DNA of 64,000 nucleotides, taken from the NCBI GenBank assembly GCA_035448805.1, contig DAOTJR010000009.1, positions 4,090 through 68,089 on the forward strand, in the 5' to 3' direction. The translations under genes were made by a program, and so were the position numbers. The DNA is from Syntrophales bacterium. Lineage in GTDB: Bacteria > Desulfobacterota > Syntrophia > Syntrophales > UBA8958. Below are positions 25,855-36,203 of this stretch, in pieces; the stretch's first letter is position 1, and every line of letters begins with the position of its first letter. Below the pieces are notes generated by a model. That model did no database searches, was not told where the DNA came from, and was given only the letters and a program-made list of their open reading frames with translations.

Positions 25855-26382
25855 TTACGTACACAGGTCGTTTAGCTGATACCGGTTGCTGAAACAGTCC
25901 AGCACGAGTTGCAACTCCGGCCGCAGGCACGATTGGAGCAGGTCACGGGTAATCGCGTGAACCTTGTCCTCCTCCCGGCGTTGTTCCTGCCGGGACAGAT
26001 CGAAGGCAACCTCCCCGTTTTCGAATCTGAGGACATGGACCAGTTCATGGACAGCGATATACAGCAGCAACGGGCTCAACTTGATAAAAGAATGGGCCCG
26101 GTCCACGGCATCGAGGATCCGGTCGTCCTGGAGACAGATCCGGTAAAAATGAAAACCCCGCTCCTGCCCCGCTTCCTCTTTCCGGTAATGATACTTGCAG
26201 AGGTGGGCGAAGGCCTCTTTTCTAACCTCATGATCATCGAGAAAGGCCAGGGTCTTGACGTCGTAGGGGTGCGCCCGGACCTTTTCCGGGGATAGACGGA
26301 AATGCCGGCTCATCAACCCCTCGGCCTGTTGAAAGGAGGAATGTGCCAGCGATATCTGTTCGGGATTGAAATACCGGCCCAT
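25855..26382 (-). CDS. Hypothetical protein with HExxH motif
   Basis: 175 aa. [20 protein letters not shown] is a possible Zn-metallopeptidase-type motif. I recognise no other family signature. Confidence 0.55.
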
Positions 26383-26576: not shown

Positions 26577-28061
26577 CTATTTTGTCGGCACCGGCACGGA
26601 AGTGAGGAGATACTTCAGGTCCTCGTCCTCGAAGCGCAGGGATATGCCCACATAAGGGGAACTGTTTCCCTGGTTGCTGATAAAATCATCCCAGCCGGCA
26701 TTGAGGTAGATGTTCTTCAGGAGGCGAAGTTCACCCCCCGCCTTGAGATGGGCCTTCCGGTCCGTAGAAAAATCGAAGGCCTCGAAGGTGAGACGCAGCC
26801 GGTCCTGAAAGGAGAGAAAATCCGCCCCCACCCCGCCGGTGGATTCGAAGATCCCGCCCCGGACGACGAAATCCTTAAAGCGCTTACCCAGTTGCGCATT
26901 GAAGAGGAGACCGCTCCGGTCCCATTCCGTAATGGTGGTCGTCGTTCCCCCCTGGGTGATGTCTTTGACCGTCCGGCGTCCCCGGGGATCCGCCGCCAGG
27001 CCGAGGAGATAGAAGTAATCCTGACGGGGCTGGATACGCAAGTCGAGATAACTTTTCGCGTCGCTCTTGTCGATCAGATACTCCCCCCGGTAGCCTATAA
27101 ATGTTCTGAACTGCTCGCTTTTATTTACGAATTTATTTATTCCCCCCAGGGTTTGATTGAGGTTTTTCACCGTCTCGTCGTCGTTGACAAGTTTGCCGAT
27201 CGTCCCCTGGCCTTTGTTTATCTTGTCGGATACCTCCTGGAGGCTGGCCATGGTCTTATTCAGGCGCGCCGCCATCTCCCGGTCTCGGACGAGTTGTCCC
27301 ACCGTCCCCTCGCCCCGCTGGATGCCGGCGGTAATGTCGCTCAGGGAGGCAAAGGTCTTCTCCATCTGGCTTGTCGCCGCCCGCAGGCTTTCGATGACCT
27401 GGGCGATCTTTTCGTCGTTCCGGACGACCACCCGGTTCAGATTGCCCGTCAACTGCCGGGTGTTTTCCAACATGGCCCGGAGGGTGGCCTCGTTGTTCAC
27501 GACAACGGCGTTCAGATTCCTGGTCAAAAGGCGGGTATTCTCCAGGATGGCCCCCATGGATTCTTCTCCGGCCTTTCCTCCCATGACCTTGCTCAACGCG
27601 CCCGTAACCCCCTTGACGTCTTCGGCGATGGCGGCCAGTTGATTGAGGAGTTTATCCACATCGGCCTGGCGTTCCACCCGGGTGATACTCTCCCCCGCCT
27701 GGAGGAGCGCCGTCCCCTGGGTACCCGGCAGCAATTCGATATATTTGTCGCCGAGAATCCCGTGGGTCTTGATCGCGGCCGTGACGTCCTTTTCGAGCTT
27801 CACCTCCCCGGGGAGGCGGATACTCACCACGGCCCGGCCGTTCTTGAGGCGGATCGTTTCCACCCGTCCCACCTCCACGCCGGCGATCTGCACGGAGGCG
27901 CCGTTGGTCAGTCCCGCGGCGTTGTCGAACTCAACCTCCACCAGATAGCCCCGTTTGAAGGTAAAACCCCGCTGGCCGACCTGAAAGGACATATACCCGA
28001 GGACGATCAGACCGATGAGGACGAAAAGGCCGACCTTGGCCTCGGAGCTGATTTTGTTCAT
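26577..28061 (-). CDS. mlaD: MlaD/MCE-family protein with long helical and C-terminal beta-rich extension
   Basis: AAGGAGG lies 9 nt before the ATG at 28061. TM helix VGLFVLIGLIVLGYMSF and MCE core VEFDNAAGLTNGASVQIAGVEVGRVETI. This is followed by repeated LN..VV.N helical segments and a C-terminal region of about 185 aa with an alternating pattern. Confidence 0.85.
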   Translation of the reverse strand: MNKISSEAKVGLFVLIGLIVLGYMSFQVGQRGFTFKRGYLVEVEFDNAAGLTNGASVQIAGVEVGRVETIRLKNGRAVVSIRLPGEVKLEKDVTAAIKTHGILGDKYIELLPGTQGTALLQAGESITRVERQADVDKLLNQLAAIAEDVKGVTGALSKVMGGKAGEESMGAILENTRLLTRNLNAVVVNNEATLRAMLENTRQLTGNLNRVVVRNDEKIAQVIESLRAATSQMEKTFASLSDITAGIQRGEGTVGQLVRDREMAARLNKTMASLQEVSDKINKGQGTIGKLVNDDETVKNLNQTLGGINKFVNKSEQFRTFIGYRGEYLIDKSDAKSYLDLRIQPRQDYFYLLGLAADPRGRRTVKDITQGGTTTTITEWDRSGLLFNAQLGKRFKDFVVRGGIFESTGGVGADFLSFQDRLRLTFEAFDFSTDRKAHLKAGGELRLLKNIYLNAGWDDFISNQGNSSPYVGISLRFEDEDLKYLLTSVPVPTK

Positions 28062-28078
28062 GAAATGGAACCTCCTTA

Positions 28079-28825
28079 TCACATAACCCGGATCGGGCCC
28101 TCGATACTCCCGGCGAGAAACTGGCGGATCACGGGGTCCCGGGATGCCTGGATCTCCTCCGGCGTGCCGTGGGCGATAATAACGCCTTCATAAAGCATGG
28201 CGATCTTGTGGCCGATCCGGAAGATGGACTGAAGATCGTGACTGATGACCACACAGGTCAACTGGAAATTCTTCTGGGTCGCCACGATCAACTGGTTGAC
28301 GGCCTCCGTCATGACGGGATCGAGACCCGTCGTCGGCTCGTCGAAGAGGACGATCCGGGGATGGAGGGCGATGGCCCGGGCCAGACCGACCCTTTTTCTC
28401 ATCCCTCCGCTCAACTCGGCCGGCATCTTTTCCTCCACCCCCGGCAGGCCGACCGCCCGCAAGCGGTCCGTCACGATCCCGCGGATCTCCGTCTCTTTAA
28501 GTCGGGCGTGTTCCCGGAGGGGGAAGGCCACGTTTTCCCCGACCGTCATGGAATCGAAAAGGGCGGCCTCTTGAAACAGCATTCCGAACTTCTTTCTGAT
28601 TTCGTTGAGTTCCCGGTCGTTGAGGCGGGTTATATCCACACCGTCCACCAGGACCCGGCCCCGGTCGGGCTTCATGAGCCCGATGATGTGTTTGAGCAGG
28701 ACGCTTTTCCCGCCGCCGCTGCGCCCGATGATCACCGTGGTCATGCCGTCCTCGATGGTGAGGTTCAAACCGGCCAGGACCTGATTTTTCCCGAAGGATT
28801 TGTGAAGGTCTATCAGTTCGATCAT
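28079..28825 (-). CDS. mlaF: ABC transporter ATP-binding protein, MlaF type
   Basis: Starts at MIELIDLHKSFG (28825). Walker A GRSGGGKS, signature LSGGMRKRVGLARA, Walker B IVLFDEPTTGLDP. The arginine-rich extension of the track ORF up to 28966 overlaps mlaE and is rejected. Confidence 0.9.
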   Translation of the reverse strand: MIELIDLHKSFGKNQVLAGLNLTIEDGMTTVIIGRSGGGKSVLLKHIIGLMKPDRGRVLVDGVDITRLNDRELNEIRKKFGMLFQEAALFDSMTVGENVAFPLREHARLKETEIRGIVTDRLRAVGLPGVEEKMPAELSGGMRKRVGLARAIALHPRIVLFDEPTTGLDPVMTEAVNQLIVATQKNFQLTCVVISHDLQSIFRIGHKIAMLYEGVIIAHGTPEEIQASRDPVIRQFLAGSIEGPIRVM

Positions 28826-28839
28826 CGTCCCGGGATGCC

Positions 28840-29619
28840 TCAAAACATGAGCGCCGTCAAAAAATAATCGCTGATCAGGATGGTGATGGAGGCCAGCACC
28901 ACCGCCTCCGTCGTGGCCCGTCCCACGCCTTCCGCGCCGCCGGTGGTGTTGAACCCTTTGTAGCAACCAACCAGGGAGAGGATCAGGCCGAAGCAGGCCG
29001 CCTTGATCAATCCGTTAAATATATCGCTTAGTTCGACTAATTTGGTGATATTCTTCATGAAGACCCCGGCGTTGATGTTCAGGAGTTCCACACCGACGAA
29101 ATAGCCCCCCAGGATCCCGACAAAGTCGCTGACAATGGTCAGAAAGGGGACCATGACGACGCCGGCGATGATCCGGGGCACAATGAGGTACTGCACGGGA
29201 TTGGCGGCCATGACATAGAGGGCGTCCACCTGCTCCGTAACCTTCATGGTGCCGATCTCCGCCGCCATGGCCGAGCCGGCCCGGGCCGTCACCATGAGGG
29301 AGGTGAGGACGGGGCCCAGCTCTCTGGTCATTCCCAGGGCCACCGTGGCCCCCACCATGCTCTCGGCGCTGAACATCCGGAAGCCGTGATACCCCTGGAG
29401 GGCCATGACCATGCCGGTGAACATCCCCGTGAGCACCACCACGAAGATGGAACGGACGCCGACGAACTCCATCTGCTTGAAGATGTTGCGGAGGCGGAGC
29501 GGCGGCCGGAACATCCATCCCATAACGGAGAAGAACAGGAGGATGATCCTCCCCATTTCCTCGACGGAACGGAGTACGGCGCGCCCCAACGCGTCGATTA
29601 ACGAAGTCAGGCCACCCAT
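28840..29619 (-). CDS. mlaE: ABC transporter permease, MlaE type
   Basis: 259 aa, multi-TM. GATVALGMTRELGPVLTSLMVTARAGSAMAAEIGTMKVTEQVDAL is the conserved MlaE block. Confidence 0.9.
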   Translation of the reverse strand: MGGLTSLIDALGRAVLRSVEEMGRIILLFFSVMGWMFRPPLRLRNIFKQMEFVGVRSIFVVVLTGMFTGMVMALQGYHGFRMFSAESMVGATVALGMTRELGPVLTSLMVTARAGSAMAAEIGTMKVTEQVDALYVMAANPVQYLIVPRIIAGVVMVPFLTIVSDFVGILGGYFVGVELLNINAGVFMKNITKLVELSDIFNGLIKAACFGLILSLVGCYKGFNTTGGAEGVGRATTEAVVLASITILISDYFLTALMF

Positions 29620-30690
29620 TTACAGCGGGCCTCTTTTCGCTCCATGGGCCCGCAGCGCCGCGTCGATGATCCGGCTGATCAGCCCGGTCTGGGTGATCCC
29701 CGCCGCGGCCGCCTGATGAAACAACACCGTGGAGGGGGTCATGCCGGGCAGGGTGTTGGGCTCGAGGACCGCCACCCGTCCGTCAGGGCGGACAAACATG
29801 TCGATCCGGGCATAGCCCTTGAGATCCAGGGCAACAAAGGCCTCCCGGGCCGTCTCCTGGATTCTCGTCAAGATTTCCCCGGGGAGGCGGGCGGGGGTCT
29901 TGTTCTCCCCCTGACCGTACAAAAACTTGTCCTCCAGGGAGAGGATTTCGGCGGTGGGGATCGTCTCCGAGGGGGTTAAGGCGCAGGGGGGATCACCATC
30001 CAGGACACCGCAGGTAACCTCCGTCCCGGTGAGAAACTCCTCCACCAGGGCCACATTGTCCCATTCCAGAGCGGCAGTCACCGCGGCAGCCACCCCCTCC
30101 CGGGACACCACCTTCTTGACGGCGGTGCTGCACCCCTCCCGGGTGGGTTTGACGATACAGGGGAACCCGATCTCGGCCGTCACCCGGTCCAGCAGCTCCG
30201 CTCGTGCCGCGCTCTCCCAGGCCCGCCGGGATACCGGAACGGTAGCGGGAACATCGATCCCGTTCATGGCGAAGATCCGTCGGCAGACATATTTGTCCAT
30301 CCCCAGGGCGGAGGCCAGGACACCCGAGCCCGTGTAAGGGATGCCCAAAAGTTCGAGAAGGCCCTGGATACAACCGTCTTCCCCATATTTACCATGGAGG
30401 CCAAGGCAGACGACATCGGTCTTTTCCTTGAGAGATTCATACGGCAGCCGTTGCGCCTCCCCTTCGAGATCCTCCTCGATATCCCTGGTGCTGTTCCGCA
30501 TGAGGAGCTTCAGGGGAATCTCCCAGAGCCGGGCTTGAGAATCCATGAAAACAGCCAGGGGGATGAATCGTTGCCGATCCATCTTGCTGAAGATGTTACG
30601 GCCGCTTTCCAGAGACACCTCCTTTTCCGAAGACATCCCTCCCATGATCACCGCCACCCTCAGTTTTTCCGTTGCCGTTGTCTCTGCCAT
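29620..30690 (-). CDS. D-alanine-D-alanine ligase family protein, divergent paralogue (Cys/Phe at DdlB Ser150/Tyr216 positions)
   Basis: ATP-grasp Ddl layout: GGMSSEKEVSL, HGKYGEDGCIQGLLELLGIPYTGSG, VKPTREGCSTAV, LEDKFLY, ARIDMF, LEPNTLPGMT. The ATG at 30690 is preferred over the GTG at 30705. The TAA at 29622-29620 is followed directly by the mlaE ATG. Confidence 0.8.
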   Translation of the reverse strand: MAETTATEKLRVAVIMGGMSSEKEVSLESGRNIFSKMDRQRFIPLAVFMDSQARLWEIPLKLLMRNSTRDIEEDLEGEAQRLPYESLKEKTDVVCLGLHGKYGEDGCIQGLLELLGIPYTGSGVLASALGMDKYVCRRIFAMNGIDVPATVPVSRRAWESAARAELLDRVTAEIGFPCIVKPTREGCSTAVKKVVSREGVAAAVTAALEWDNVALVEEFLTGTEVTCGVLDGDPPCALTPSETIPTAEILSLEDKFLYGQGENKTPARLPGEILTRIQETAREAFVALDLKGYARIDMFVRPDGRVAVLEPNTLPGMTPSTVLFHQAAAAGITQTGLISRIIDAALRAHGAKRGPL

Positions 30691-30820
30691 GTAACGTCCC
30701 TTCACTCCTTGTTATATTTCGTCAAAAAAGTACCGGCGGCGGCGCCTCTCCCGTGGCGCTTCCCTGCCCCCGGCTATCCCTCGTATTCATTACCTTCTGT
30801 CCCGCACCGCTTTGTTCCCT

Positions 30821-31876
30821 TCACAGCGGCCCCTTCTTTTCCCGGTGAATGGCCAGGGCATTCTCGATGAGGGTCGTGATGATCATCGACGGCAGCATCC
30901 CGGCACTGGCCGCCTGCTCGAAAAAAAACGAGGAGGGGGCCATCCCGGAGGAGGAATTAGGATCGGTGATCAAGATCCGACCGTCGGGAAGATAAAAACC
31001 ATCGATACGCCCATAGGATCTGAAGCCGAGCACCTCGAAGGCCCGCCGGGCTTCATCCTTGATCCTGGCCGCCGTTTCCGGGGGGATGTTCTTCGGCGGC
31101 GTGAATTTCCGGCACCGGCCGGGCATGTACTTGTCATCGTAGGTGTAGAAGTCGCTCTGGGGATAGATCTCCGTGAGATCGAGGGGCGTGATTTCGCCGT
31201 CCCGCTCCAGAATGATCGCGGAAAACTCGATACCCGCCAGAAACTCCTCCACCAGTGCCAGCCGGTCCCATCGGAAGGCCTCGTCGAGGACCCCCTCGAT
31301 ATCCGTCGCCGCCCGGATCTTGCCCACCCCCACGCTCGATCCCTCCCGTACCGGCTTGACGAAAAAGGGAAGGGCGAAACGACCGAGCAGCTTCTCCACC
31401 ACCAGCTCCGGCGTCCGGCGCCATTCCTCCTCCCGGACGATCATGCTTGCGGGGACGGCGATTCCCGCCGCCGCCAACACCTGCTGCTGGATATGCTTAT
31501 CCATCCCCAAGGCGGAAGCGAGAACCCCGGGCCCCGTATAGGGGATACGGAGGAGTTCGAGGAGCCCCTGGATACATCCGTCGTCGCCGTATTTTCCGTG
31601 GAGGGAGATAAAGGCGAAGTCGATCCTCTCCGGCAGCTCCTCATACGCAATCCGCCGGGCCTCTCCGGAAAGCCTTTCCGAGATGTCTACGGTGGTGTTC
31701 TGGGAAACGAGCTGCCAGGGTATCTCCCAGAGACCGCCCTGCCCGTCCATAAACATGGGTACCCCCTGGAAGTACTCCGGATCGAGATTGTCATAGACGT
31801 TCCGGCCACTGTTTAGGGACACCTCCCGTTCCGACGACATACCCCCGAAAATGATTCCCACCCTCAATTTCTGCAT
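30821..31876 (-). CDS. ddl: D-alanine-D-alanine ligase family protein (Ser/Tyr retained)
   Basis: GGMSSEREVSL, HGKYGDDGCIQGLLELLRIPYTGPG, VKPVREGSSVGV, YDDKYM, GRIDGF, TDPNSSSGMA. GAGGAGG lies upstream of the ATG at 31876. The track start at 31897 is a TTG. Confidence 0.8.
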   Translation of the reverse strand: MQKLRVGIIFGGMSSEREVSLNSGRNVYDNLDPEYFQGVPMFMDGQGGLWEIPWQLVSQNTTVDISERLSGEARRIAYEELPERIDFAFISLHGKYGDDGCIQGLLELLRIPYTGPGVLASALGMDKHIQQQVLAAAGIAVPASMIVREEEWRRTPELVVEKLLGRFALPFFVKPVREGSSVGVGKIRAATDIEGVLDEAFRWDRLALVEEFLAGIEFSAIILERDGEITPLDLTEIYPQSDFYTYDDKYMPGRCRKFTPPKNIPPETAARIKDEARRAFEVLGFRSYGRIDGFYLPDGRILITDPNSSSGMAPSSFFFEQAASAGMLPSMIITTLIENALAIHREKKGPL

Positions 31877-31906
31877 CTGAACACGGATCCTCCTCAAGAA
31901 TTTTCC

Positions 31907-33865
31907 CTATGAATCCCAGATAAAAGTCACGCCGCTGTTCGGAAAGATCCAGGTATGATCCGGAACCCGCAGCCGGATGAATCTGCCCTTTTCTCGTGTC
32001 ACCTCGGGATAAGGCTGCTTGCCGGCGAAAAAACTCACCTCCCGGACATGCCGGAAGCCCGTCTGCTCATAATTGAAGGTAATATCGAGCCCCCGGGTCG
32101 GATAGACGATATACACGGAGAAGATATTGTTCGCCCTCGATTTCTTGGTAAATATTTCTATGGCGATCTCGACCTCCGTATCGAGTTTTCGCCCCAGGCC
32201 GCCGGAGCTGCACCATACTTCATAGCCCCGGGAGGTCATCGCCGTGCGGACGATGGGGACGTCCTCGCCGTCCACCGTCACCCGGGCCACCCGAAAGTCC
32301 CTCTCCATGACCAGATCCTCGCCTCTGGTCATCAACCAGCGGTATTCGCACCGCGGGTCCTCGAAAAACGCCGCCAACTGTTCTTCATCGAAGGCGCAGC
32401 CGATGAGAAAATTGTCATTTTTCAATGTCTTACGATAGGCAACCCGGGTGGTGACATCCAGGCTGCCATCTCGTCTTCCGGCAGGCGTACCGTCTGTCCC
32501 CGCCGCTTCGGCAACGCCGATATCATAACGGAAGTCTTCCCGCAACTCCAACCGGCGGTCTTCCTTCCCAAAGAGGGTTTCGAACATCTCGTAGTAGATG
32601 GCGTTCCCCAGTTCTTCGCTCCGGGCCCGGGCCTGGAAACACTGACGGATGATGCTGTCGATCCGATCTATAGAGCGCTCCTCACCGGGGATATAGATCC
32701 GCCGGAGGCGGGGCAGAACGCTGTCCGCCTTCCCCTTGTGCAGAAACAGCCGCGGCGCCCGTTTCCCCAGGGCGCAGAGGATCTCGTAGCTGATACTTCC
32801 CACCCGCCCGGCGATCTCGTTGGCGGAGATGGACTCCTGTCCCTGACGCCCCATGAGGACCACCTCGTCCCCCACACGGCAGTCGGGAATCGTGCTTACA
32901 TCAACCGTACACATATCCATGGAAACCCGTCCGACAACCGGCACACGCTTTCCCCGGATCAGCACTTCCCCCTGATTGGAGAGGATGACACCATAGCCGT
33001 CGCCGTAACCGACAGGAATAGTGGCGATACGGGTCGGTTTCGTGGTCGTGTAGGTGCGGTTGTAACCGATGCTGTACCCCTTGGGAAAATCCTTCAGCAA
33101 CACGATGCGCGTCTTGAAGGACATCACCGGCAAGAGGTCCGCCTTGTCCTTCGTCGCCGGAGAGGGATAGATGCCGTAAGACATGAGGCCCGGACGGACC
33201 ATGTCCAGATTGAACCCGGGGTAGTTCAGGATGGCCCCGCTGTTCGACATGTGCCGGATGGGAATACGGATGCCTTCGTCGGCGAGTTTCGCCAGGAGGC
33301 GGTGAAAAAGCTCGGCCTGGGACTCGTTGTAATCCGAACGGGTTTCACTGGCGGCCAGATGGGTGAAAATTCCTTCCACGATCAGGTCGGGAAGGGCCAG
33401 GATGTCCCTGATGGTCTGAAAGGCTTCATAATAAAGTGTCCCCCCTCTCCCCATCCCCGTATCCACTTCGATATGCACGGGGAGACGGATACGGGCCTGG
33501 GCACACCTCTCCTGCAGGCTCCGGGCAAAGGGGAGGTCGGAGACGGAGGGGATGAGATTGTATTTGATGATCTCGCCGATTTCCCCTTCCGGCGACGGGC
33601 TCAGGATCACGATGGGGGACGTGAGACCGCTGACCCGGAGCTGCACCCCTTCATCGGCATTGGCGACGCCCAGATAGACGGCGCCGTTCTTCAGGGCCGC
33701 CTCGGCGATCTCGATCGCCCCGTGCCCGTAAGCGTCGGCCTTCACTACCTGGAGGATCTTGACTCCCGGCCGAACCAGACGTTTGAGCTCCTTCCAGTTG
33801 CGGGCAAAATGGTCGAGATCGACCTCAACCCAGCTGCGGTATTTATGAACTTCCTGATCGGACAT
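31907..33865 (-). CDS. Alanine racemase fused to a C-terminal domain of about 277 aa with unknown function
   Basis: Residues 1-375 are a complete PLP alanine racemase (VVKADAYGHGA PLP-Lys, HIEVDTGMGRGG, PVGYGDGY, ISYEILCALGKRAPR). Residues 376-652 (31910-32740) match no family I recognise. Confidence 0.85.
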   Translation of the reverse strand: MSDQEVHKYRSWVEVDLDHFARNWKELKRLVRPGVKILQVVKADAYGHGAIEIAEAALKNGAVYLGVANADEGVQLRVSGLTSPIVILSPSPEGEIGEIIKYNLIPSVSDLPFARSLQERCAQARIRLPVHIEVDTGMGRGGTLYYEAFQTIRDILALPDLIVEGIFTHLAASETRSDYNESQAELFHRLLAKLADEGIRIPIRHMSNSGAILNYPGFNLDMVRPGLMSYGIYPSPATKDKADLLPVMSFKTRIVLLKDFPKGYSIGYNRTYTTTKPTRIATIPVGYGDGYGVILSNQGEVLIRGKRVPVVGRVSMDMCTVDVSTIPDCRVGDEVVLMGRQGQESISANEIAGRVGSISYEILCALGKRAPRLFLHKGKADSVLPRLRRIYIPGEERSIDRIDSIIRQCFQARARSEELGNAIYYEMFETLFGKEDRRLELREDFRYDIGVAEAAGTDGTPAGRRDGSLDVTTRVAYRKTLKNDNFLIGCAFDEEQLAAFFEDPRCEYRWLMTRGEDLVMERDFRVARVTVDGEDVPIVRTAMTSRGYEVWCSSGGLGRKLDTEVEIAIEIFTKKSRANNIFSVYIVYPTRGLDITFNYEQTGFRHVREVSFFAGKQPYPEVTREKGRFIRLRVPDHTWIFPNSGVTFIWDS

Positions 33866-33953: not shown

Positions 33954-36203
33954 CTATTTTCTGGTCATCGTGAACACCCCGTCCCACTCTCCTTCCGGAG
34001 GATGCCCCTTCAGATCCTGACAGCGCTGAATATAAAGTTTCGACGGCGGGTCATCGGGACGGATTTCCAGAACCTGCTGGAACGCCGCAATGGCTTCATC
34101 CCAGCGGGCGGCCTTGTAGTGCGCCAGCCCTTCGTGAAAACGCCGGATGTATTCCTCGTGGGGCGCCGCATCTTTACGCTCGCAGATCAATTCGTAGATC
34201 TTCACCGGCAGTTTTTTGCCTTTCACGCGCACCGCGTCCAGCTCCCGGCAGAACATCTCCTCTTTGACCACTTCATAGGTATATTCGCTGATGACGATGT
34301 GGGTGCCGTACTCCTTGTTGATCCCCTCGAGACGGGAGCTGAGATTCACATTGTCGCCCATGACGGTGTAATCGAAGCGCATGTTCGAACCCATGTTGCC
34401 GACGACCATATCGCCGCTGTTGATGCCGACACCGATATCCACATAGGGCCGCCCCTCCTTTTCCCACTTCTCCTGCAGCACCTTGAGCGTGGTCATCATC
34501 TCCAGAGCCGTCCGGCAGCAGCGCAGGGCGTGATCCGGTTGCTCCACCGGCGCCCCGAACACCGCCATGATAGCGTCGCCGATGTATTTGTCGAGAAGCC
34601 CTTCGTACTTGAAGACGATGTCCGTCATGGCCGTCAGGTACTCGTTGAGGAGATGCACCAGCTCCTCGGGGGTCAACTTCTCCGAGATGGTGGTAAAGCC
34701 GCGGATATCGGAGAACATCACCGTCAGGTCCTTCTTGTCCCCCCCCAATTTGAGTTTGCCGGGGTCCTTGAGAAGTTCGTTGATGACCGAGGCGGTGAGA
34801 TAATACTGGAACGCCCCGCGGATCTTTTTCTTTTCCCGCTCTTCCGTAAAGTATCGATAGACGGTTATGACCAGATAGATGGTCATCATCGTCAAGACGG
34901 GATAGATAAGGTTCAGCCAGGTGTTGTATTTGGCAAAGACGAAAGTGTTTGCCACAATGAAGCCGCCCACGAGTACCAGGGCGAGAAAGATGCCCTGAAC
35001 GGCCTTCACCCGGGGGATCGCGATCCCGAGGACCATGCCGAAGATAACGATGCTGCAGATATCGAGGAAGGTGGTCCAGGCGGACTGCTCGAGAAAATTA
35101 CCCTGGAGGATGTCTTCCACGACGGTTGCGTGCAGCTCCACCCCGGGATAGACGGGGCTGAAGGGCGTTACCCGCAGATCGTAGATGCCCGTGGCGGTGG
35201 CCCCGACCACCACGATCTTGCCTTTGATAAGCTCAGGCGCGATCCGGCCCTGCATAATATCGGAGATGGAATAATGGGGAAAGGTCTTGGCCGGCCCCAG
35301 ATAGTTGATCAGCAGCCGGCCGCTCTCGTCGGTAGGGATCCGGATGTCCCCGAGCATGACACTTTCGACACCGAATTCGGCCAGGTTGAGGACGAGCATC
35401 GGATAATCCAAATATTGCATCAGCAGGGCTATCGGCAGGGAGTGGTAGAAATTTTCCTGGAACCTGATGACCAGGGGCGACCAGCGGATGACCCCGTCGG
35501 AATCGGGGAAGGCGTTGAAATACCCGCTGTTTTCTCCTGCTTCCGCAATCTCCTTGATGCTGGGTACCGGGGCATAGGCGGTGATGATATTATACAGCCC
35601 CACCGGACCTTTGGCCTTGACCATGGGATACATCGATCCGCCGATGAGGGACGCCGCCGTGGTGATGTATTCCTCGCTTATGAATCCTAAATCCTTTTCG
35701 GACGTATGGAAGAAATATCCGAGGCTGACGTTTTTTGCCTTGGCGATGGCCCCGGCAAGGATGGCATCGGCTTGCGCCGCTTGCGCCTTATCCTCGAGAA
35801 TGCCCATGAGACGGGGATCATGAATGCCCATTTCGGCGGCATCCTGATATATCTCCTTGAGGGTGTTCATGCTTTCGTTCTGCTCCGGCTCGGCAAAAAC
35901 GATATCGAACCCCACTGCTTTGGCACCGTATTCCTTGAGGGCTTCCACCAGACGGGCCGTCACCTTCCGCGACCAGGGCCAGCGGCCGACCTCACTCAGG
36001 CTTTTCTCATCCACCGTAGCGATGATCACCTGGCCGCTGGTCGGCAACTGCCCCCGTGACACCATGCGGAGATCGAGGGCCTTCAACTCCATAAAGCGCA
36101 GGAATTTCGGGTCCATGAAGAACATCGCCAGGAAGATGAGCACTACGGCAACGGTGATTTTGAACGGTGATAAGACCAGCAGATTTTTAATCGATATCCT
36201 CAT
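33954..36203 (-). CDS. CHASE2-sensor class III adenylate/guanylate cyclase
   Basis: 749 aa. N-terminal TM, periplasmic CHASE2-like region (VIIATVDEKSLSEVGRWPWSR), TM cluster, then cyclase domain (VMFSDIRGFTTISE...GDAIMAVFGAP...GINSGDMVVGNMGS) and a TPR-like tail. Confidence 0.85.
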   Translation of the reverse strand: MRISIKNLLVLSPFKITVAVVLIFLAMFFMDPKFLRFMELKALDLRMVSRGQLPTSGQVIIATVDEKSLSEVGRWPWSRKVTARLVEALKEYGAKAVGFDIVFAEPEQNESMNTLKEIYQDAAEMGIHDPRLMGILEDKAQAAQADAILAGAIAKAKNVSLGYFFHTSEKDLGFISEEYITTAASLIGGSMYPMVKAKGPVGLYNIITAYAPVPSIKEIAEAGENSGYFNAFPDSDGVIRWSPLVIRFQENFYHSLPIALLMQYLDYPMLVLNLAEFGVESVMLGDIRIPTDESGRLLINYLGPAKTFPHYSISDIMQGRIAPELIKGKIVVVGATATGIYDLRVTPFSPVYPGVELHATVVEDILQGNFLEQSAWTTFLDICSIVIFGMVLGIAIPRVKAVQGIFLALVLVGGFIVANTFVFAKYNTWLNLIYPVLTMMTIYLVITVYRYFTEEREKKKIRGAFQYYLTASVINELLKDPGKLKLGGDKKDLTVMFSDIRGFTTISEKLTPEELVHLLNEYLTAMTDIVFKYEGLLDKYIGDAIMAVFGAPVEQPDHALRCCRTALEMMTTLKVLQEKWEKEGRPYVDIGVGINSGDMVVGNMGSNMRFDYTVMGDNVNLSSRLEGINKEYGTHIVISEYTYEVVKEEMFCRELDAVRVKGKKLPVKIYELICERKDAAPHEEYIRRFHEGLAHYKAARWDEAIAAFQQVLEIRPDDPPSKLYIQRCQDLKGHPPEGEWDGVFTMTRK

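What the first reader, a model, noticed from the sequence alone, without database searches (positions are those of the whole stretch)
29620..30690. Downstream Ddl paralogue has lost two of the three Glu15-Ser150-Tyr216 triad residues
I aligned by hand to E. coli DdlB, and my recalled sequence numbers consistently for E15, S150, K215/Y216, R255, D257, E270, N272, S281 and L282. This paralogue reads VKPTREGCSTAV, so the Ser150 equivalent is Cys. It reads LEDKFLY, so the Tyr216 equivalent is Phe. The upstream paralogue keeps EGSSVG and DDKYM. In DdlB and Leuconostoc ligases, the Tyr/Phe state of this omega-loop position is the known switch between dipeptide and D-Ala-D-lactate depsipeptide formation. 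The upstream paralogue deviates elsewhere: TDPNSSSG instead of E-x-N-T-x-P-G.
Basis: partly seen in the sequence, partly recalled or inferred. Interest (0 to 1): 0.65.

Follow-up and report, generated by a model that had tools for sequence, protein, structure and literature searches.

The report
Split two-module D-Ala-D-Ala ligase, second module
The Cys/Phe changes are real, but they mark the second half of an ancient, widespread two-part D-alanine ligase, encoded here as two genes and fused into one protein in other bacteria; they are not a clear sign of a vancomycin-type D-lactate enzyme, and nobody has tested what this second half does.

Summary
Aligned to E. coli DdlB, the downstream ligase (29620-30690, minus strand) has Cys for Ser150, Phe for Tyr216, Thr-Val for Ser281-Leu282 and an aliphatic omega loop. 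Every catalytic and ATP/Mg residue is kept. The upstream ligase keeps Ser/Tyr but has Asp for Glu270, Gly258 and Ser275.

These states are fixed. All 120 closest Syntrophales orthologues of each gene carry them. In about 100 fused two-module Ddl proteins (Dependentiae, Bacteroidota-like and others), the N half carries the upstream signature and the C half the downstream one. A tree places the two types as sister clades, apart from canonical Ddls. Only five alignment columns separate the clades, and all five lie in the active site.

The two genes are therefore the split form of a differentiated double Ddl, next to an Alr-type alanine racemase. The locus is present in sludge metatranscriptome assemblies. 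A fused relative models confidently as one unit (pTM 0.87).

The D-Ala-D-lactate reading is only partly supported. The Phe/Tyr rule is real, but there is no vanH or vanX, the gene fails every Van family cut-off, and moss, whose DDL is a double ligase, makes D-Ala-D-Ala. The job of the C-type module is untested.

The parts
29620..30690 (-). ddl_dn, the C-type Ddl module. It is 356 aa from the ATG at 30690; the ORF is open back to a GTG at 30705.
   Evidence: Pfam Dala_Dala_lig_N and _C match. It passes the NCBIfam Ddl subfamily cut-offs. AAGGAG lies upstream of the ATG. Homologues are 355-357 aa. Metatranscriptome contigs cover it at about 100% identity.
30130..30132 (-). Cys codon at the DdlB Ser150 position
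   Evidence: Alignment A1 and codon coordinates. Invariant in 120/120 orthologues and in all 106 signature-selected C-type sequences of the tree set; about 90% of unselected C halves have it.
29923..29925 (-). Phe codon at the DdlB Tyr216 position, preceded by the conserved Lys215
29725..29730 (-). Thr-Val codons at the DdlB Ser281-Leu282 positions, in the D-Ala2 carboxylate and side-chain pocket
   Evidence: Thr is present in 98% of C-type modules; position 282 is Val, Cys or Ala.
30691..30820 (-). 130-nt spacer between the two ligase genes, with a G+C-rich imperfect hairpin, a T-run and the ribosome-binding site of ddl_dn
   Evidence: Sequence read. An RNA-run contig (X27, record 19, 30465-30945) spans it. 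In about half of the related loci an outer-membrane-protein gene of about 266 aa sits here instead.
30821..31876 (-). ddl_up, the N-type Ddl module. It is 351 aa from the ATG at 31876; the ORF is open back to a TTG at 31897.
   Evidence: Pfam and NCBIfam matches. It is 45% identical to ddl_dn. Orthologues are 351 aa.
30947..31000 (-). N-type signature codons in ddl_up: Gly at DdlB 258, Asp at Glu270 and Ser at Pro275
   Evidence: Invariant in 120/120 orthologues. Asp270 is in all 112 signature-selected N-type sequences and about 97% of unselected N halves.
32732..33865 (-). Alanine racemase domain of the 652-aa Alr protein
   Evidence: Pfam Ala_racemase_N and _C. TIGR00492 alr scores 357 bits against a cut-off of 168, while vanT-G scores 342 against 460. 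The Tyr354-equivalent is Tyr, in SISYE aligned to TINYE. That is the Alr state, not the VanT Asn state (PMC4542195).
31907..32731 (-). Unassigned C-terminal domain of 274 aa fused to Alr
   Evidence: No Pfam or PDB sequence match. Conserved in 44 of 45 related loci that carry ddl_up. The AlphaFold2 model has pLDDT 77. It shows a weak likeness to the N-terminal beta domain of M1 aminopeptidases.
26577..29619 (-). mlaE (28840-29619), mlaF (about 28079-28828) and mlaD (26577-28082) directly downstream. This neighbourhood is variable.
   Evidence: Pfam matches. Present within 600 nt of ddl_dn in 36 of 68 related loci and absent in the others.
25855..26382 (-). HExxH protein of 175 aa, a downstream neighbour of ddl_dn in many related loci
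   Evidence: Found downstream of ddl_dn, directly or after mlaEFD, in most of the 80 related loci listed; directly (within 1.2 kb) in 19 of 68. No Pfam family.

Best explanation
ddl_dn is the C-type module of a split two-module D-alanine-D-alanine ligase. An ancient duplication of Ddl produced two sister paralogues that have been kept as a pair ever since.

The N-type (here ddl_up) has the canonical Glu15-Ser150-Tyr216 triad but a remodelled metal site (Gly258, Asp270, Ser275, Phe282). The C-type (here ddl_dn) has the canonical metal site but a remodelled second-substrate pocket and lid (Cys150, Leu210, Leu212, Phe216, Thr281, Val/Cys282).

In Syntrophales the two are separate genes, usually in the order alr, ddl_up, ddl_dn. 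In Dependentiae, Bacteroidota-like bacteria and other lineages they are fused N-type to C-type in one chain. I infer that the two products associate as a heterodimer.

The Alr-type racemase supplies D-Ala. Both modules keep every ATP-grasp catalytic residue, so both are probably active ligases.

Because the C-type pocket lacks both hydroxyl donors of the triad, I infer that it binds the second D-Ala differently: weaker binding of the protonated amine and relaxed choice of nucleophile.

Its main product in the cell is most likely still D-Ala-D-Ala for peptidoglycan, with the two sites differing in kinetics or regulation.

Shown here: the residue states, their fixation, the sister-clade relation and the correspondence between split and fused forms. 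RNA-run contigs cover the locus, which suggests expression. Inferred: heterodimer formation, activity of both sites and the identity of the product.
For: Residue states come from the alignment to DdlB. They are fixed in 120/120 orthologues of each gene.

A search of 1.84 billion cluster representatives found many fused two-module Ddl proteins. About 100 were split into halves. The N halves score higher against ddl_up and the C halves against ddl_dn. The commonest N-half signature is S-Y-D-S-F (86 of about 102). About 90 of 102 C halves read C-F-E-T-(V/C/A).

In a FastTree of 262 sequences, the N-type and C-type together form one clade (support 0.96). That clade and its two nearest canonical Ddls are set apart from the remaining canonical Ddls (support 1.0). 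It splits into a C-type group of 116 (fusion C halves plus Syntrophales ddl_dn core, support 0.996) and an N-type clade of 125 (support 0.85).

At a threshold of 85% or more, only five columns separate the clades: S150C, Y216F and S281T are derived in the C-type, and E270D and P275S are derived in the N-type.

Synteny: 45 of 52 Syntrophales loci with enough upstream sequence have ddl_up upstream, and 44 of those also have the long alr. On a complete 4.57-Mb chromosome the two orthologues lie about 250 kb apart and are both kept.

The 740-aa fusion is found in Candidatus Dependentiae; some copies lie on contigs of 1.1-1.6 Mb. An AlphaFold2 model of that fusion has pLDDT 89.5 and pTM 0.87 over 754 residues. 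Each module matches solved Ddl structures with TM-scores up to 0.92.

Metatranscriptome contigs cover both genes, and one contig spans the spacer between them.

From the literature: plant DDL is a fusion of two DDL genes (PMC9954125). The closest relatives of moss Ddl are in the FCB group, and the moss precursor ends in D-Ala-D-Ala (PMC9434261).
Against: No biochemical data exist for any C-type module. I could not search the window's own genome for a third, canonical Ddl, because the genome search tools were shut. So it is unproven that the pair is the housekeeping ligase here.

The heterodimer is inferred from gene fusion and a confident single-chain model. I had no coordinates to check whether the modelled interface matches the Ddl homodimer.

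I could not obtain a plant DDL sequence, so the claim that plant DDL carries the same asymmetric signatures is untested here.

Seven of 52 loci lack ddl_up nearby. One C-type gene from another lineage stands alone among ribosomal protein genes. The C-type might therefore also work alone.

Mutations at Tyr216 and Ser150 are exactly those that give DdlB depsipeptide activity (PMC7691350). A different product is therefore a live alternative.
Confidence: 0.6

Rival explanations
1. ddl_dn is a ligase with its own product. It would join D-Ala to D-lactate, another hydroxy acid or another D-amino acid, so the pair would make two different termini.
For: Phe at the Tyr216 position marks depsipeptide ligases in lactic acid bacteria (PMC5996685). 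DdlB Y216F and S150A gain D-Ala-D-Lac activity, and LmDdl2 has Phe plus Ala at these positions (PMC7691350). All C-type-specific changes line the second-substrate pocket or its lid, while the catalytic residues stay intact. One fused relative sits on a mobile element beside a MurF and a VanX/DdpX-like M15 peptidase.
Against: The operon has no D-lactate dehydrogenase (vanH) and no vanX. The gene scores 178 bits against the 550-bit cut-off of the D-Ala-D-Lac equivalog, and lower against every named Van ligase. The module is kept in Dependentiae, where some copies lie on contigs of only 1.1-1.6 Mb. Literature says plants have a double DDL and that the moss precursor detected was D-Ala-D-Ala (PMC9434261). 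The organism has an Mla system and so probably an outer membrane, which argues against glycopeptide selection.
Confidence: 0.2
2. ddl_dn is a D-Ala-D-Ser ligase working with a VanT-like serine racemase, as in the VanC/VanG systems.
For: The best named 'exception' family for both ligases is VanG (200 and 192 bits). The racemase scores almost as well against the VanT-G catalytic model (342 bits) as against alr (357 bits). From my own knowledge, VanC and VanG also carry Phe at the Tyr216 position.
Against: All Van scores are far below their cut-offs: 495 for VanG and 460 for vanT-G. The racemase has Tyr at the BsAlr Tyr354 / VanT Asn696 position. That is the alanine-specific state (PMC4542195). 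The DdlB Leu282 position is Val; from my own knowledge, VanC2 and VanG have an Arg there as a D-Ser determinant, which I could not confirm in the library.
Confidence: 0.04
3. ddl_dn is a non-catalytic or regulatory partner. It would bind nucleotide or D-Ala-D-Ala and tune the N-type site, as degenerate sites do in other heterodimeric enzymes.
For: Each module has exactly one canonical feature set altered. This resembles heterodimers with one consensus site and one degenerate site. Ddl is known to be product-inhibited (my own knowledge).
Against: Glu15, His63, Lys97, Lys144, Lys215, Arg255, Asp257, Glu270 and Asn272 are invariant or nearly so in the C-type clade. Both genes diverge at the same rate across Syntrophales, at about 66-88% identity. 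The substitutions are conservative and are known to be compatible with catalysis in DdlB.
Confidence: 0.1
4. The two genes are ordinary redundant isozymes like E. coli DdlA and DdlB, and the Cys/Phe changes are neutral lineage-specific drift.
For: Many bacteria carry two Ddl isozymes. Both genes pass the generic Ddl subfamily models.
Against: The signatures are invariant in 120/120 orthologues of each gene. They recur in the same N-to-C order in about 100 fused proteins from distant phyla. The two types are ancient sister clades. Neutral drift would not fix the same five active-site columns.
Confidence: 0.04

Closest known systems
Fused 'double' D-Ala-D-Ala ligase (plant DDL of Arabidopsis and Physcomitrium, and the unnamed fused bacterial proteins of Dependentiae and Bacteroidota-like bacteria)
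   Same: Both consist of two different Ddl modules in a fixed order. In every bacterial fusion examined, the first module carries the ddl_up signature (Ser150, Tyr216, Asp270, Phe282). The second carries the ddl_dn signature (Cys150, Phe216, Thr281, Val/Cys282). The literature describes plant DDL as a fusion of two DDL genes needed for D-Ala-D-Ala supply in moss (PMC9954125, PMC9434261).
   Different: Here the two modules are separate genes with a 130-nt spacer; in about half of Syntrophales an outer-membrane-protein gene lies between them. They sit in an operon with a long alanine racemase. I could not fetch a plant sequence, so the plant signatures were not checked here.
E. coli DdlB / DdlA (canonical D-Ala-D-Ala ligase, EC 6.3.2.4; PDB 2DLN, 1IOW, 3I12)
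   Same: Same ATP-grasp fold and domain order. It is 32-33% identical (tblastn). All catalytic, ATP and Mg residues are kept. The fused relative superposes on DdlB Y216F (1IOW) with a TM-score of 0.92 per module.
   Different: Two of the three triad residues are replaced (Ser150->Cys, Tyr216->Phe). Ser281-Leu282 become Thr-Val. The aromatic residues of the omega loop are replaced by aliphatic ones. It comes as an obligate-looking pair with a sister paralogue rather than as a homodimer.
LmDdl2-type D-Ala-D-lactate ligases of Leuconostoc and Lactobacillus (PDB 1EHI)
   Same: Phe at the Tyr216 position, next to a retained Lys215. The hydroxyl at the Ser150 position is lost: Ala in LmDdl2, Cys here (PMC7691350, PMC5996685).
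   Different: It is only a distant sequence relative: phmmer E-value 2e-30, against 1e-54 for DdlA-type structures. It belongs to a separate clade with its own paired partner. There is no evidence of D-lactate supply. Its activity is untested.
VanA/VanB (D-Ala-D-Lac) and VanC/VanG (D-Ala-D-Ser) resistance ligases
   Same: Same fold, and likewise an altered second-substrate pocket. VanG is the best structural hit by E-value for the fused relative.
   Different: It scores far below all NCBIfam Van cut-offs. It keeps the Ddl-type Lys215 lid, unlike VanA, which aligns E-V at those positions. It has Val, not Arg, at the Leu282 position. The operon has no vanH, vanX or vanT-type genes, and the racemase is Alr-type.

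Membership tests
D-alanine-D-alanine ligase family (ATP-grasp Ddl, Pfam PF01820 + PF07478) | N-terminal and C-terminal Ddl domains above the curated cut-offs | tested here: met
   PF07478 scores 156.7 bits (cut-off 24) and PF01820 scores 91.6 bits (cut-off 34.6). NF002528 scores 279.6 (cut-off 262) and TIGR01205 scores 261.5 (cut-off 245.65).
D-alanine-D-alanine ligase family (ATP-grasp Ddl, Pfam PF01820 + PF07478) | Catalytic and ATP/Mg residues: Glu15, His63, Lys97, Lys144, Lys215, Arg255, Asp257, Glu270 and Asn272 | tested here: met
   All are present in ddl_dn and invariant in 120 orthologues.
D-alanine-D-alanine ligase family (ATP-grasp Ddl, Pfam PF01820 + PF07478) | The Glu15-Ser150-Tyr216 hydrogen-bond triad of strict dipeptide ligases | tested here: not met
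   Only Glu15 is kept. Ser150 is Cys and Tyr216 is Phe.
D-alanine-D-alanine ligase family (ATP-grasp Ddl, Pfam PF01820 + PF07478) | Makes D-Ala-D-Ala in vitro or complements a ddl mutant | not testable with these tools
   Needs an enzyme assay or complementation of E. coli ddlA ddlB.
Two-module (double) Ddl, C-type module | Cys150, Phe216 and Thr281, a small residue at 282 and an xLSLEEKF-type omega loop | tested here: met
   ddl_dn reads C, F, T, V and EILSLEDKFL. The C-type consensus is given.
Two-module (double) Ddl, C-type module | Groups with the C halves of fused proteins in a tree, as sister to the N-type clade | tested here: met
   The joint N-type plus C-type clade has support 0.96. 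The core of fusion C halves plus Syntrophales ddl_dn has support 0.996. Including the two outlying single genes lowers the node support to 0.55 and 0.17.
Two-module (double) Ddl, C-type module | Paired with an N-type module (Ser150, Tyr216, Asp270, Ser275, Phe282) placed before it | tested here: met
   ddl_up lies directly upstream and carries that signature. The same order holds in 45 of 52 loci.
Two-module (double) Ddl, C-type module | Both modules in one polypeptide | tested here: not met
   These are separate genes in different reading frames, with a stop codon and a 130-nt spacer between them. This is the split form.
Two-module (double) Ddl, C-type module | Physical association of the two modules | not testable with these tools
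   Support is indirect only: the gene fusions, and pTM 0.87 for a fused relative.
VanA/VanB-type D-Ala-D-lactate ligase | NCBIfam equivalog or exception model above its cut-off | tested here: not met
   D_ala_D_lac scores 177.8 (cut-off 550), VanA 149.3 (cut-off 775) and VanB 144.2 (cut-off 750).
VanA/VanB-type D-Ala-D-lactate ligase | Companion vanH (D-lactate dehydrogenase) and vanX (dipeptidase) genes | tested here: not met
   The operon is cyclase, alr, ddl_up, ddl_dn, mlaEFD, then the HExxH gene. No such genes are present.
LmDdl2-type D-Ala-D-lactate ligase | Phe at the Tyr216 position and no hydroxyl at the Ser150 position | tested here: met
   Phe and Cys are present. LmDdl2 has Phe and Ala (PMC7691350). 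Whether a Cys thiol behaves like Ala is unknown.
LmDdl2-type D-Ala-D-lactate ligase | D-Ala-D-lactate synthesis | not testable with these tools
   Needs an assay.
VanC/VanG-type D-Ala-D-serine ligase | NCBIfam model above its cut-off, and a serine racemase partner with Asn at the VanT Asn696 position | tested here: not met
   VanG scores 200.2 (cut-off 495) and D_ala_D_ser scores 163.4 (cut-off 520). The racemase has Tyr at that position (PMC4542195).

The most novel reading that the evidence does not exclude
The C-type module (Cys150/Phe216/Thr281) could be an unrecognised, ancient enzyme class distinct from Ddl proper. It would be kept beside a true Ddl from Syntrophales, Dependentiae and Bacteroidota-like bacteria to plant plastids. 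In this reading it makes a second product, a D-Ala-D-X dipeptide or depsipeptide, or it acts as an obligatory heteromeric partner that sets flux into peptidoglycan.
Probability: 0.2. Interest if true: 0.85.

Novelty: new variant of a known kind. Interest (0 to 1): 0.55.

Why it matters
Ddl is a classic antibiotic target and a textbook homodimer. This work shows that a large and old branch of the family is built from two differentiated modules. Their only consistent differences lie in the active sites: one module has a changed metal site, and the other has lost the triad that enforces dipeptide specificity.

The split Syntrophales operon is a natural experiment, because each module can be expressed, mutated and assayed separately. 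That is harder with the fused proteins of Dependentiae, Bacteroidota-like bacteria and plants.

If the C-type site has its own product or a regulatory role, several things would change. Automatic "D-alanine--D-alanine ligase" annotations would need revisiting. The Phe/Tyr rule would no longer be a safe predictor of vancomycin-type termini in metagenomes. The Arabidopsis ddl lines that still express only the second half (PMC9954125) would need reinterpreting.

I found no paper in the searchable library that describes this asymmetry.

Tried and rejected
I could not ask whether this genome, or the complete relatives, hold a third canonical Ddl or where the cell-division cluster lies. As a substitute I matched contig lengths in homologue tables. 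That showed both orthologues on one 4.57-Mb chromosome.
- I tried to obtain a plant DDL sequence from paper supplements and from cluster names. I got none, so the plant link rests on the literature only.
- Cluster look-ups gave few organism names: Cytophagales, a Verrucomicrobia MAG and Dependentiae.
- Literature searches for a description of two-domain Ddl asymmetry found nothing relevant. The VanG determinant residues could not be confirmed in the library.
- Promoter and terminator consensus scans were at chance level.
- Searching solved structures with the fused model matches only single modules, so it says nothing about the interface between modules.
- Rejected: pseudogene or decay, because the frame is intact, the residues are fixed and RNA-run contigs cover the gene.
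- Rejected: simple DdlA/DdlB-like redundancy.
- Rejected: membership of the VanA, VanB, VanC or VanG families.
- Rejected: a conserved functional link to mlaEFD, which follows ddl_dn in only 36 of 68 loci.
Full report
**What is at the locus.** On the minus strand the window carries the following genes in order:
- a CHASE2 adenylate/guanylate cyclase (33954-36203);
- a 652-aa alanine racemase (31907-33865);
- a first Ddl gene, called ddl_up here (30821-31876/31897);
- a 130-nt spacer;
- a second Ddl gene, called ddl_dn here, which is the finding (29620-30690/30705);
- mlaE, mlaF and mlaD (26577-29619);
- a 175-aa HExxH protein and a zinc-ribbon protein.

Both ligases match the two Pfam Ddl domains and pass the generic NCBIfam Ddl subfamily cut-offs. 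They are 45% identical to each other and 32-33% identical to E. coli DdlA and DdlB by tblastn. There is no other Ddl gene in the window. The same DNA occurs in activated-sludge and anaerobic-digester metagenomes.

**Checking the observation.** I took E. coli ddlB and ddlA and enterococcal vanA from annotated records and aligned them with both window proteins.
- ddl_dn has Cys at Ser150, Phe at Tyr216, Thr-Val at Ser281-Leu282 and ILSL in place of the omega-loop FYDY.
- It keeps Glu15, His63, Lys97, Lys144, Lys215, Arg255, Asp257, Glu270 and Asn272.
- ddl_up keeps Ser150, Tyr216 and Ser281, but has Asp at Glu270, Gly at position 258, Ser at Thr273 and Pro275, and Phe at Leu282.
- HMMER alignments to solved DdlA structures give the same register.

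**The states are fixed.** The 120 best database homologues of ddl_dn are 69-100% identical, and those that carry a source name are labelled Syntrophales, Syntrophus or Delta-/Pseudomonadota MAGs. All 120 have Cys150, Phe216, Thr281 and Val282. The 120 best homologues of ddl_up all have Ser150, Tyr216, Gly258, Asp270, Ser273, Ser275 and Phe282. Across the same genomes the two genes diverge to the same degree. Both are therefore under similar purifying selection.

**Gene neighbourhood in relatives.** I examined 80 loci from species-representative genomes. All records with an informative title are Syntrophales or relatives; the rest are labelled Deltaproteobacteria or unclassified MAGs.
- Of the 52 loci with enough upstream sequence, 45 have ddl_up upstream of ddl_dn. 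Of those, 44 also have the long racemase.
- In about half of them, a gap of 830-1090 nt between the two ligase genes holds a 266-aa outer-membrane-protein gene. In this window only a spacer is present.
- mlaEFD follows ddl_dn in 36 of 68 loci, so that link is not conserved.
- Seven loci lack ddl_up nearby. One of these is a complete 4.57-Mb chromosome. Its ddl_up orthologue lies about 250 kb away, with no racemase next to it. The pair is therefore kept even when unlinked.

**The wider family.** A HMMER search of 1.84 billion cluster representatives with ddl_dn returned one 50%-identity representative for the Syntrophales orthologues. It also returned many proteins of 650-1285 aa that contain two Ddl units each. 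I split about 100 of these proteins at the start of the second unit and aligned all halves to DdlB.
- N halves score higher against ddl_up, and C halves score higher against ddl_dn.
- N halves read Ser150-Tyr216-Asp270-Ser281-Phe282 in 86 of about 102 cases. Almost all the others are close variants.
- C halves read Cys150-Phe216-Glu270-Thr281-(Val/Cys/Ala)282 in about 90 of 102 cases.
- Single-unit Ddls among the same hits mostly read the canonical Ser-Tyr-Glu-Ser-Leu.

The roughly 740-aa fusions belong to Candidatus Dependentiae/Babeliales; some lie on contigs of 1.1-1.6 Mb. The roughly 840-930-aa fusions look like Bacteroidota. One is named Cytophagales, and another is followed by a PASTA-domain gene and a Por-secretion-tail gene.

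**Phylogeny.** I built a FastTree (LG+gamma) from 262 sequences and 326 trimmed columns.
- N-type and C-type sequences together form one clade (support 0.96). That clade and its two nearest canonical Ddls are set apart from the remaining canonical Ddls, DdlA, DdlB and VanA (support 1.0).
- Inside it, the fusion C halves and Syntrophales ddl_dn form one clade (support 0.996 for the core).
- The fusion N halves, Syntrophales ddl_up and some single N-type genes form the sister clade (support 0.85).

The simplest reading is one ancient duplication, followed by retention of both copies and by fusion in several lineages. The fused order, N-type then C-type, is the same as the gene order here.

**Where the two types differ.** I required 85% or more conservation within each clade and a different residue between clades. 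Only five DdlB positions pass: 150, 216 and 281, where the C-type is derived, and 270 and 275, where the N-type is derived. At looser thresholds more positions appear:
- The C-type adds Leu210, Leu212, Gly221 and Val/Cys282.
- The N-type adds Gly258, Phe188 and Phe282.

The C-type changes all lie in the second D-Ala pocket and its lid. The N-type changes lie around the Mg2+ ligands; the roles of these residues come from the DdlB structural literature and my own knowledge. Each module thus has one canonical feature set intact and the other altered.

**Structure.** I modelled a Dependentiae fusion (P0121, 754 aa) with an 84-sequence alignment. The model has mean pLDDT 89.5 and pTM 0.87, and only the two omega loops and the tail have lower confidence. 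A pTM that high for a two-module chain suggests the relative placement of the modules is predicted with confidence. This fits a fixed pseudo-dimer. I had no coordinates, so I could not compare it with the Ddl homodimer interface. Each module matches solved Ddl structures, with TM-scores up to 0.92 to DdlB Y216F (1IOW).

**Expression.** Four activated-sludge metatranscriptome assemblies hold contigs that match the cyclase, alr, ddl_up, ddl_dn and mla genes at about 100% identity. One contig (30465-30945) spans the end of ddl_up, the spacer and the start of ddl_dn. This fits co-transcription. Contamination of RNA libraries with DNA cannot be excluded, and contig depth is not a measure of expression.

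**Testing the depsipeptide and D-serine readings.**

Points in favour of the depsipeptide reading:
- Phe versus Tyr at this position predicts depsipeptide versus dipeptide ligases in lactic acid bacteria (PMC5996685).
- DdlB Y216F and S150A gain weak D-Ala-D-Lac activity, and LmDdl2 has Phe plus Ala at these positions (PMC7691350).

Points against it:
- ddl_dn scores 178 bits against the 550-bit D-Ala-D-Lac cut-off, 200 against 495 for VanG, and lower for all other Van ligases.
- It keeps the Ddl-type Lys215 lid rather than the VanA loop.
- The operon has no vanH or vanX.
- The racemase passes the alr model and fails the vanT model. It also has Tyr at the position where VanT racemases need Asn for serine (PMC4542195).
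- The module is kept in Dependentiae, where some copies lie on contigs of only 1.1-1.6 Mb.
- Plant DDL is described as a fusion of two DDL genes (PMC9954125). Its closest relatives are in the FCB group, and the moss precursor pool contains the ordinary D-Ala-D-Ala pentapeptide (PMC9434261).

These points make a dedicated D-lactate or D-serine role unlikely. They do not exclude relaxed specificity or a minor second product.

**Interpretation.** ddl_dn is the C-type module of a split two-module Ddl. I commit to the following model.
- Alr supplies D-Ala.
- ddl_up and ddl_dn associate.
- Both sites are catalytic.
- The C-type site lacks the hydroxyl donors of the triad. It therefore handles the second substrate differently, while the complex mainly supplies D-Ala-D-Ala for peptidoglycan.

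The split/fused correspondence is well supported; I put it at about 0.85. The mechanistic part is inference, and I put the whole statement at 0.6. A distinct product for the C-type site is the main rival, at about 0.2.

**Earlier notes of this scan.** After reaching this reading, I looked up earlier notes. Several follow-ups on other genomes describe the same two-module family and the same Cys/Phe/Thr signature. One describes another Syntrophales split operon. They also say that the roughly 800-aa fusions are Patescibacteria and that a plant record carries the same architecture. I did not test those two points. These are unchecked AI notes and do not count as independent evidence.

**Limits.** I could not search the whole genome, I had no plant sequence, and few organism names were available for the fused proteins. 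There are no model coordinates and no biochemistry for any C-type module.

Noticed in passing
window 31907-32731 (-): The alanine racemase carries a conserved 274-aa C-terminal domain with no Pfam or PDB sequence match. An AlphaFold2 model (pLDDT 77, pTM 0.75) is a two-helix lead-in plus a beta sandwich. It weakly resembles the N-terminal beta domain of M1 aminopeptidases and LTA4 hydrolase (Foldseek E 8e-6, but TM only 0.34-0.39). The domain is fused to Alr in 44 of 45 related loci that carry ddl_up.
   Followed up: partly
window 25855-26382 (-): A 175-aa protein with a single HELVH motif and no Pfam family lies downstream of ddl_dn, directly or after mlaEFD, in most related Syntrophales loci. 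This holds even where alr and ddl_up are absent. Together with the M1-N-like domain on Alr, it raises the untested idea of a split gluzincin-like peptidase.
   Followed up: partly
L088:4383-11239: A fused double Ddl (P0239, 833 aa, C half Cys-Phe-Glu-Thr-Ile) sits between a VanX/DdpX-like M15 peptidase (weak match), a methyltransferase, an unknown 449-aa gene and a MurF that passes TIGR01143. A MobQ relaxase lies nearby. This looks like a mobile cassette for peptidoglycan-terminus enzymes. It is a single instance.
   Followed up: partly
L016:7167-7967 and about 22 other related loci: In about half of the Syntrophales loci, a 266-aa signal-peptide, beta-barrel-like outer-membrane-protein gene lies between ddl_up and ddl_dn. 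In this window only a 130-nt spacer remains.
   Followed up: partly
window 30720-30790 (-): The spacer between the two ligase genes holds a G+C-rich imperfect hairpin (CCGGGGGC...GCCGCCGG) followed by TACTTTTTTG, just before the AAGGAG ribosome-binding site of ddl_dn. It could be a partial terminator or an attenuator. An RNA-run contig nevertheless spans it.
   Followed up: no
L089:8001-9047: A single C-type Ddl gene (P0157, Cys-Phe-Glu-Thr-Cys) stands alone between the rpsT gene and a ribosomal protein cluster on a 23-kb metagenome contig. No N-type gene lies within 8 kb. The C-type may therefore exist without an adjacent partner in some lineages.
   Followed up: no
proteins P0134, P0135, P0144: Some double Ddl proteins are 1244-1285 aa long, with about 350 extra C-terminal residues after the second module. 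I did not annotate the extension.
   Followed up: no
window 29617-29622: The mlaE start codon abuts the ddl_dn stop codon here, but mlaEFD follows ddl_dn in only 36 of 68 related loci. The juxtaposition is not a conserved functional link.
   Followed up: yes
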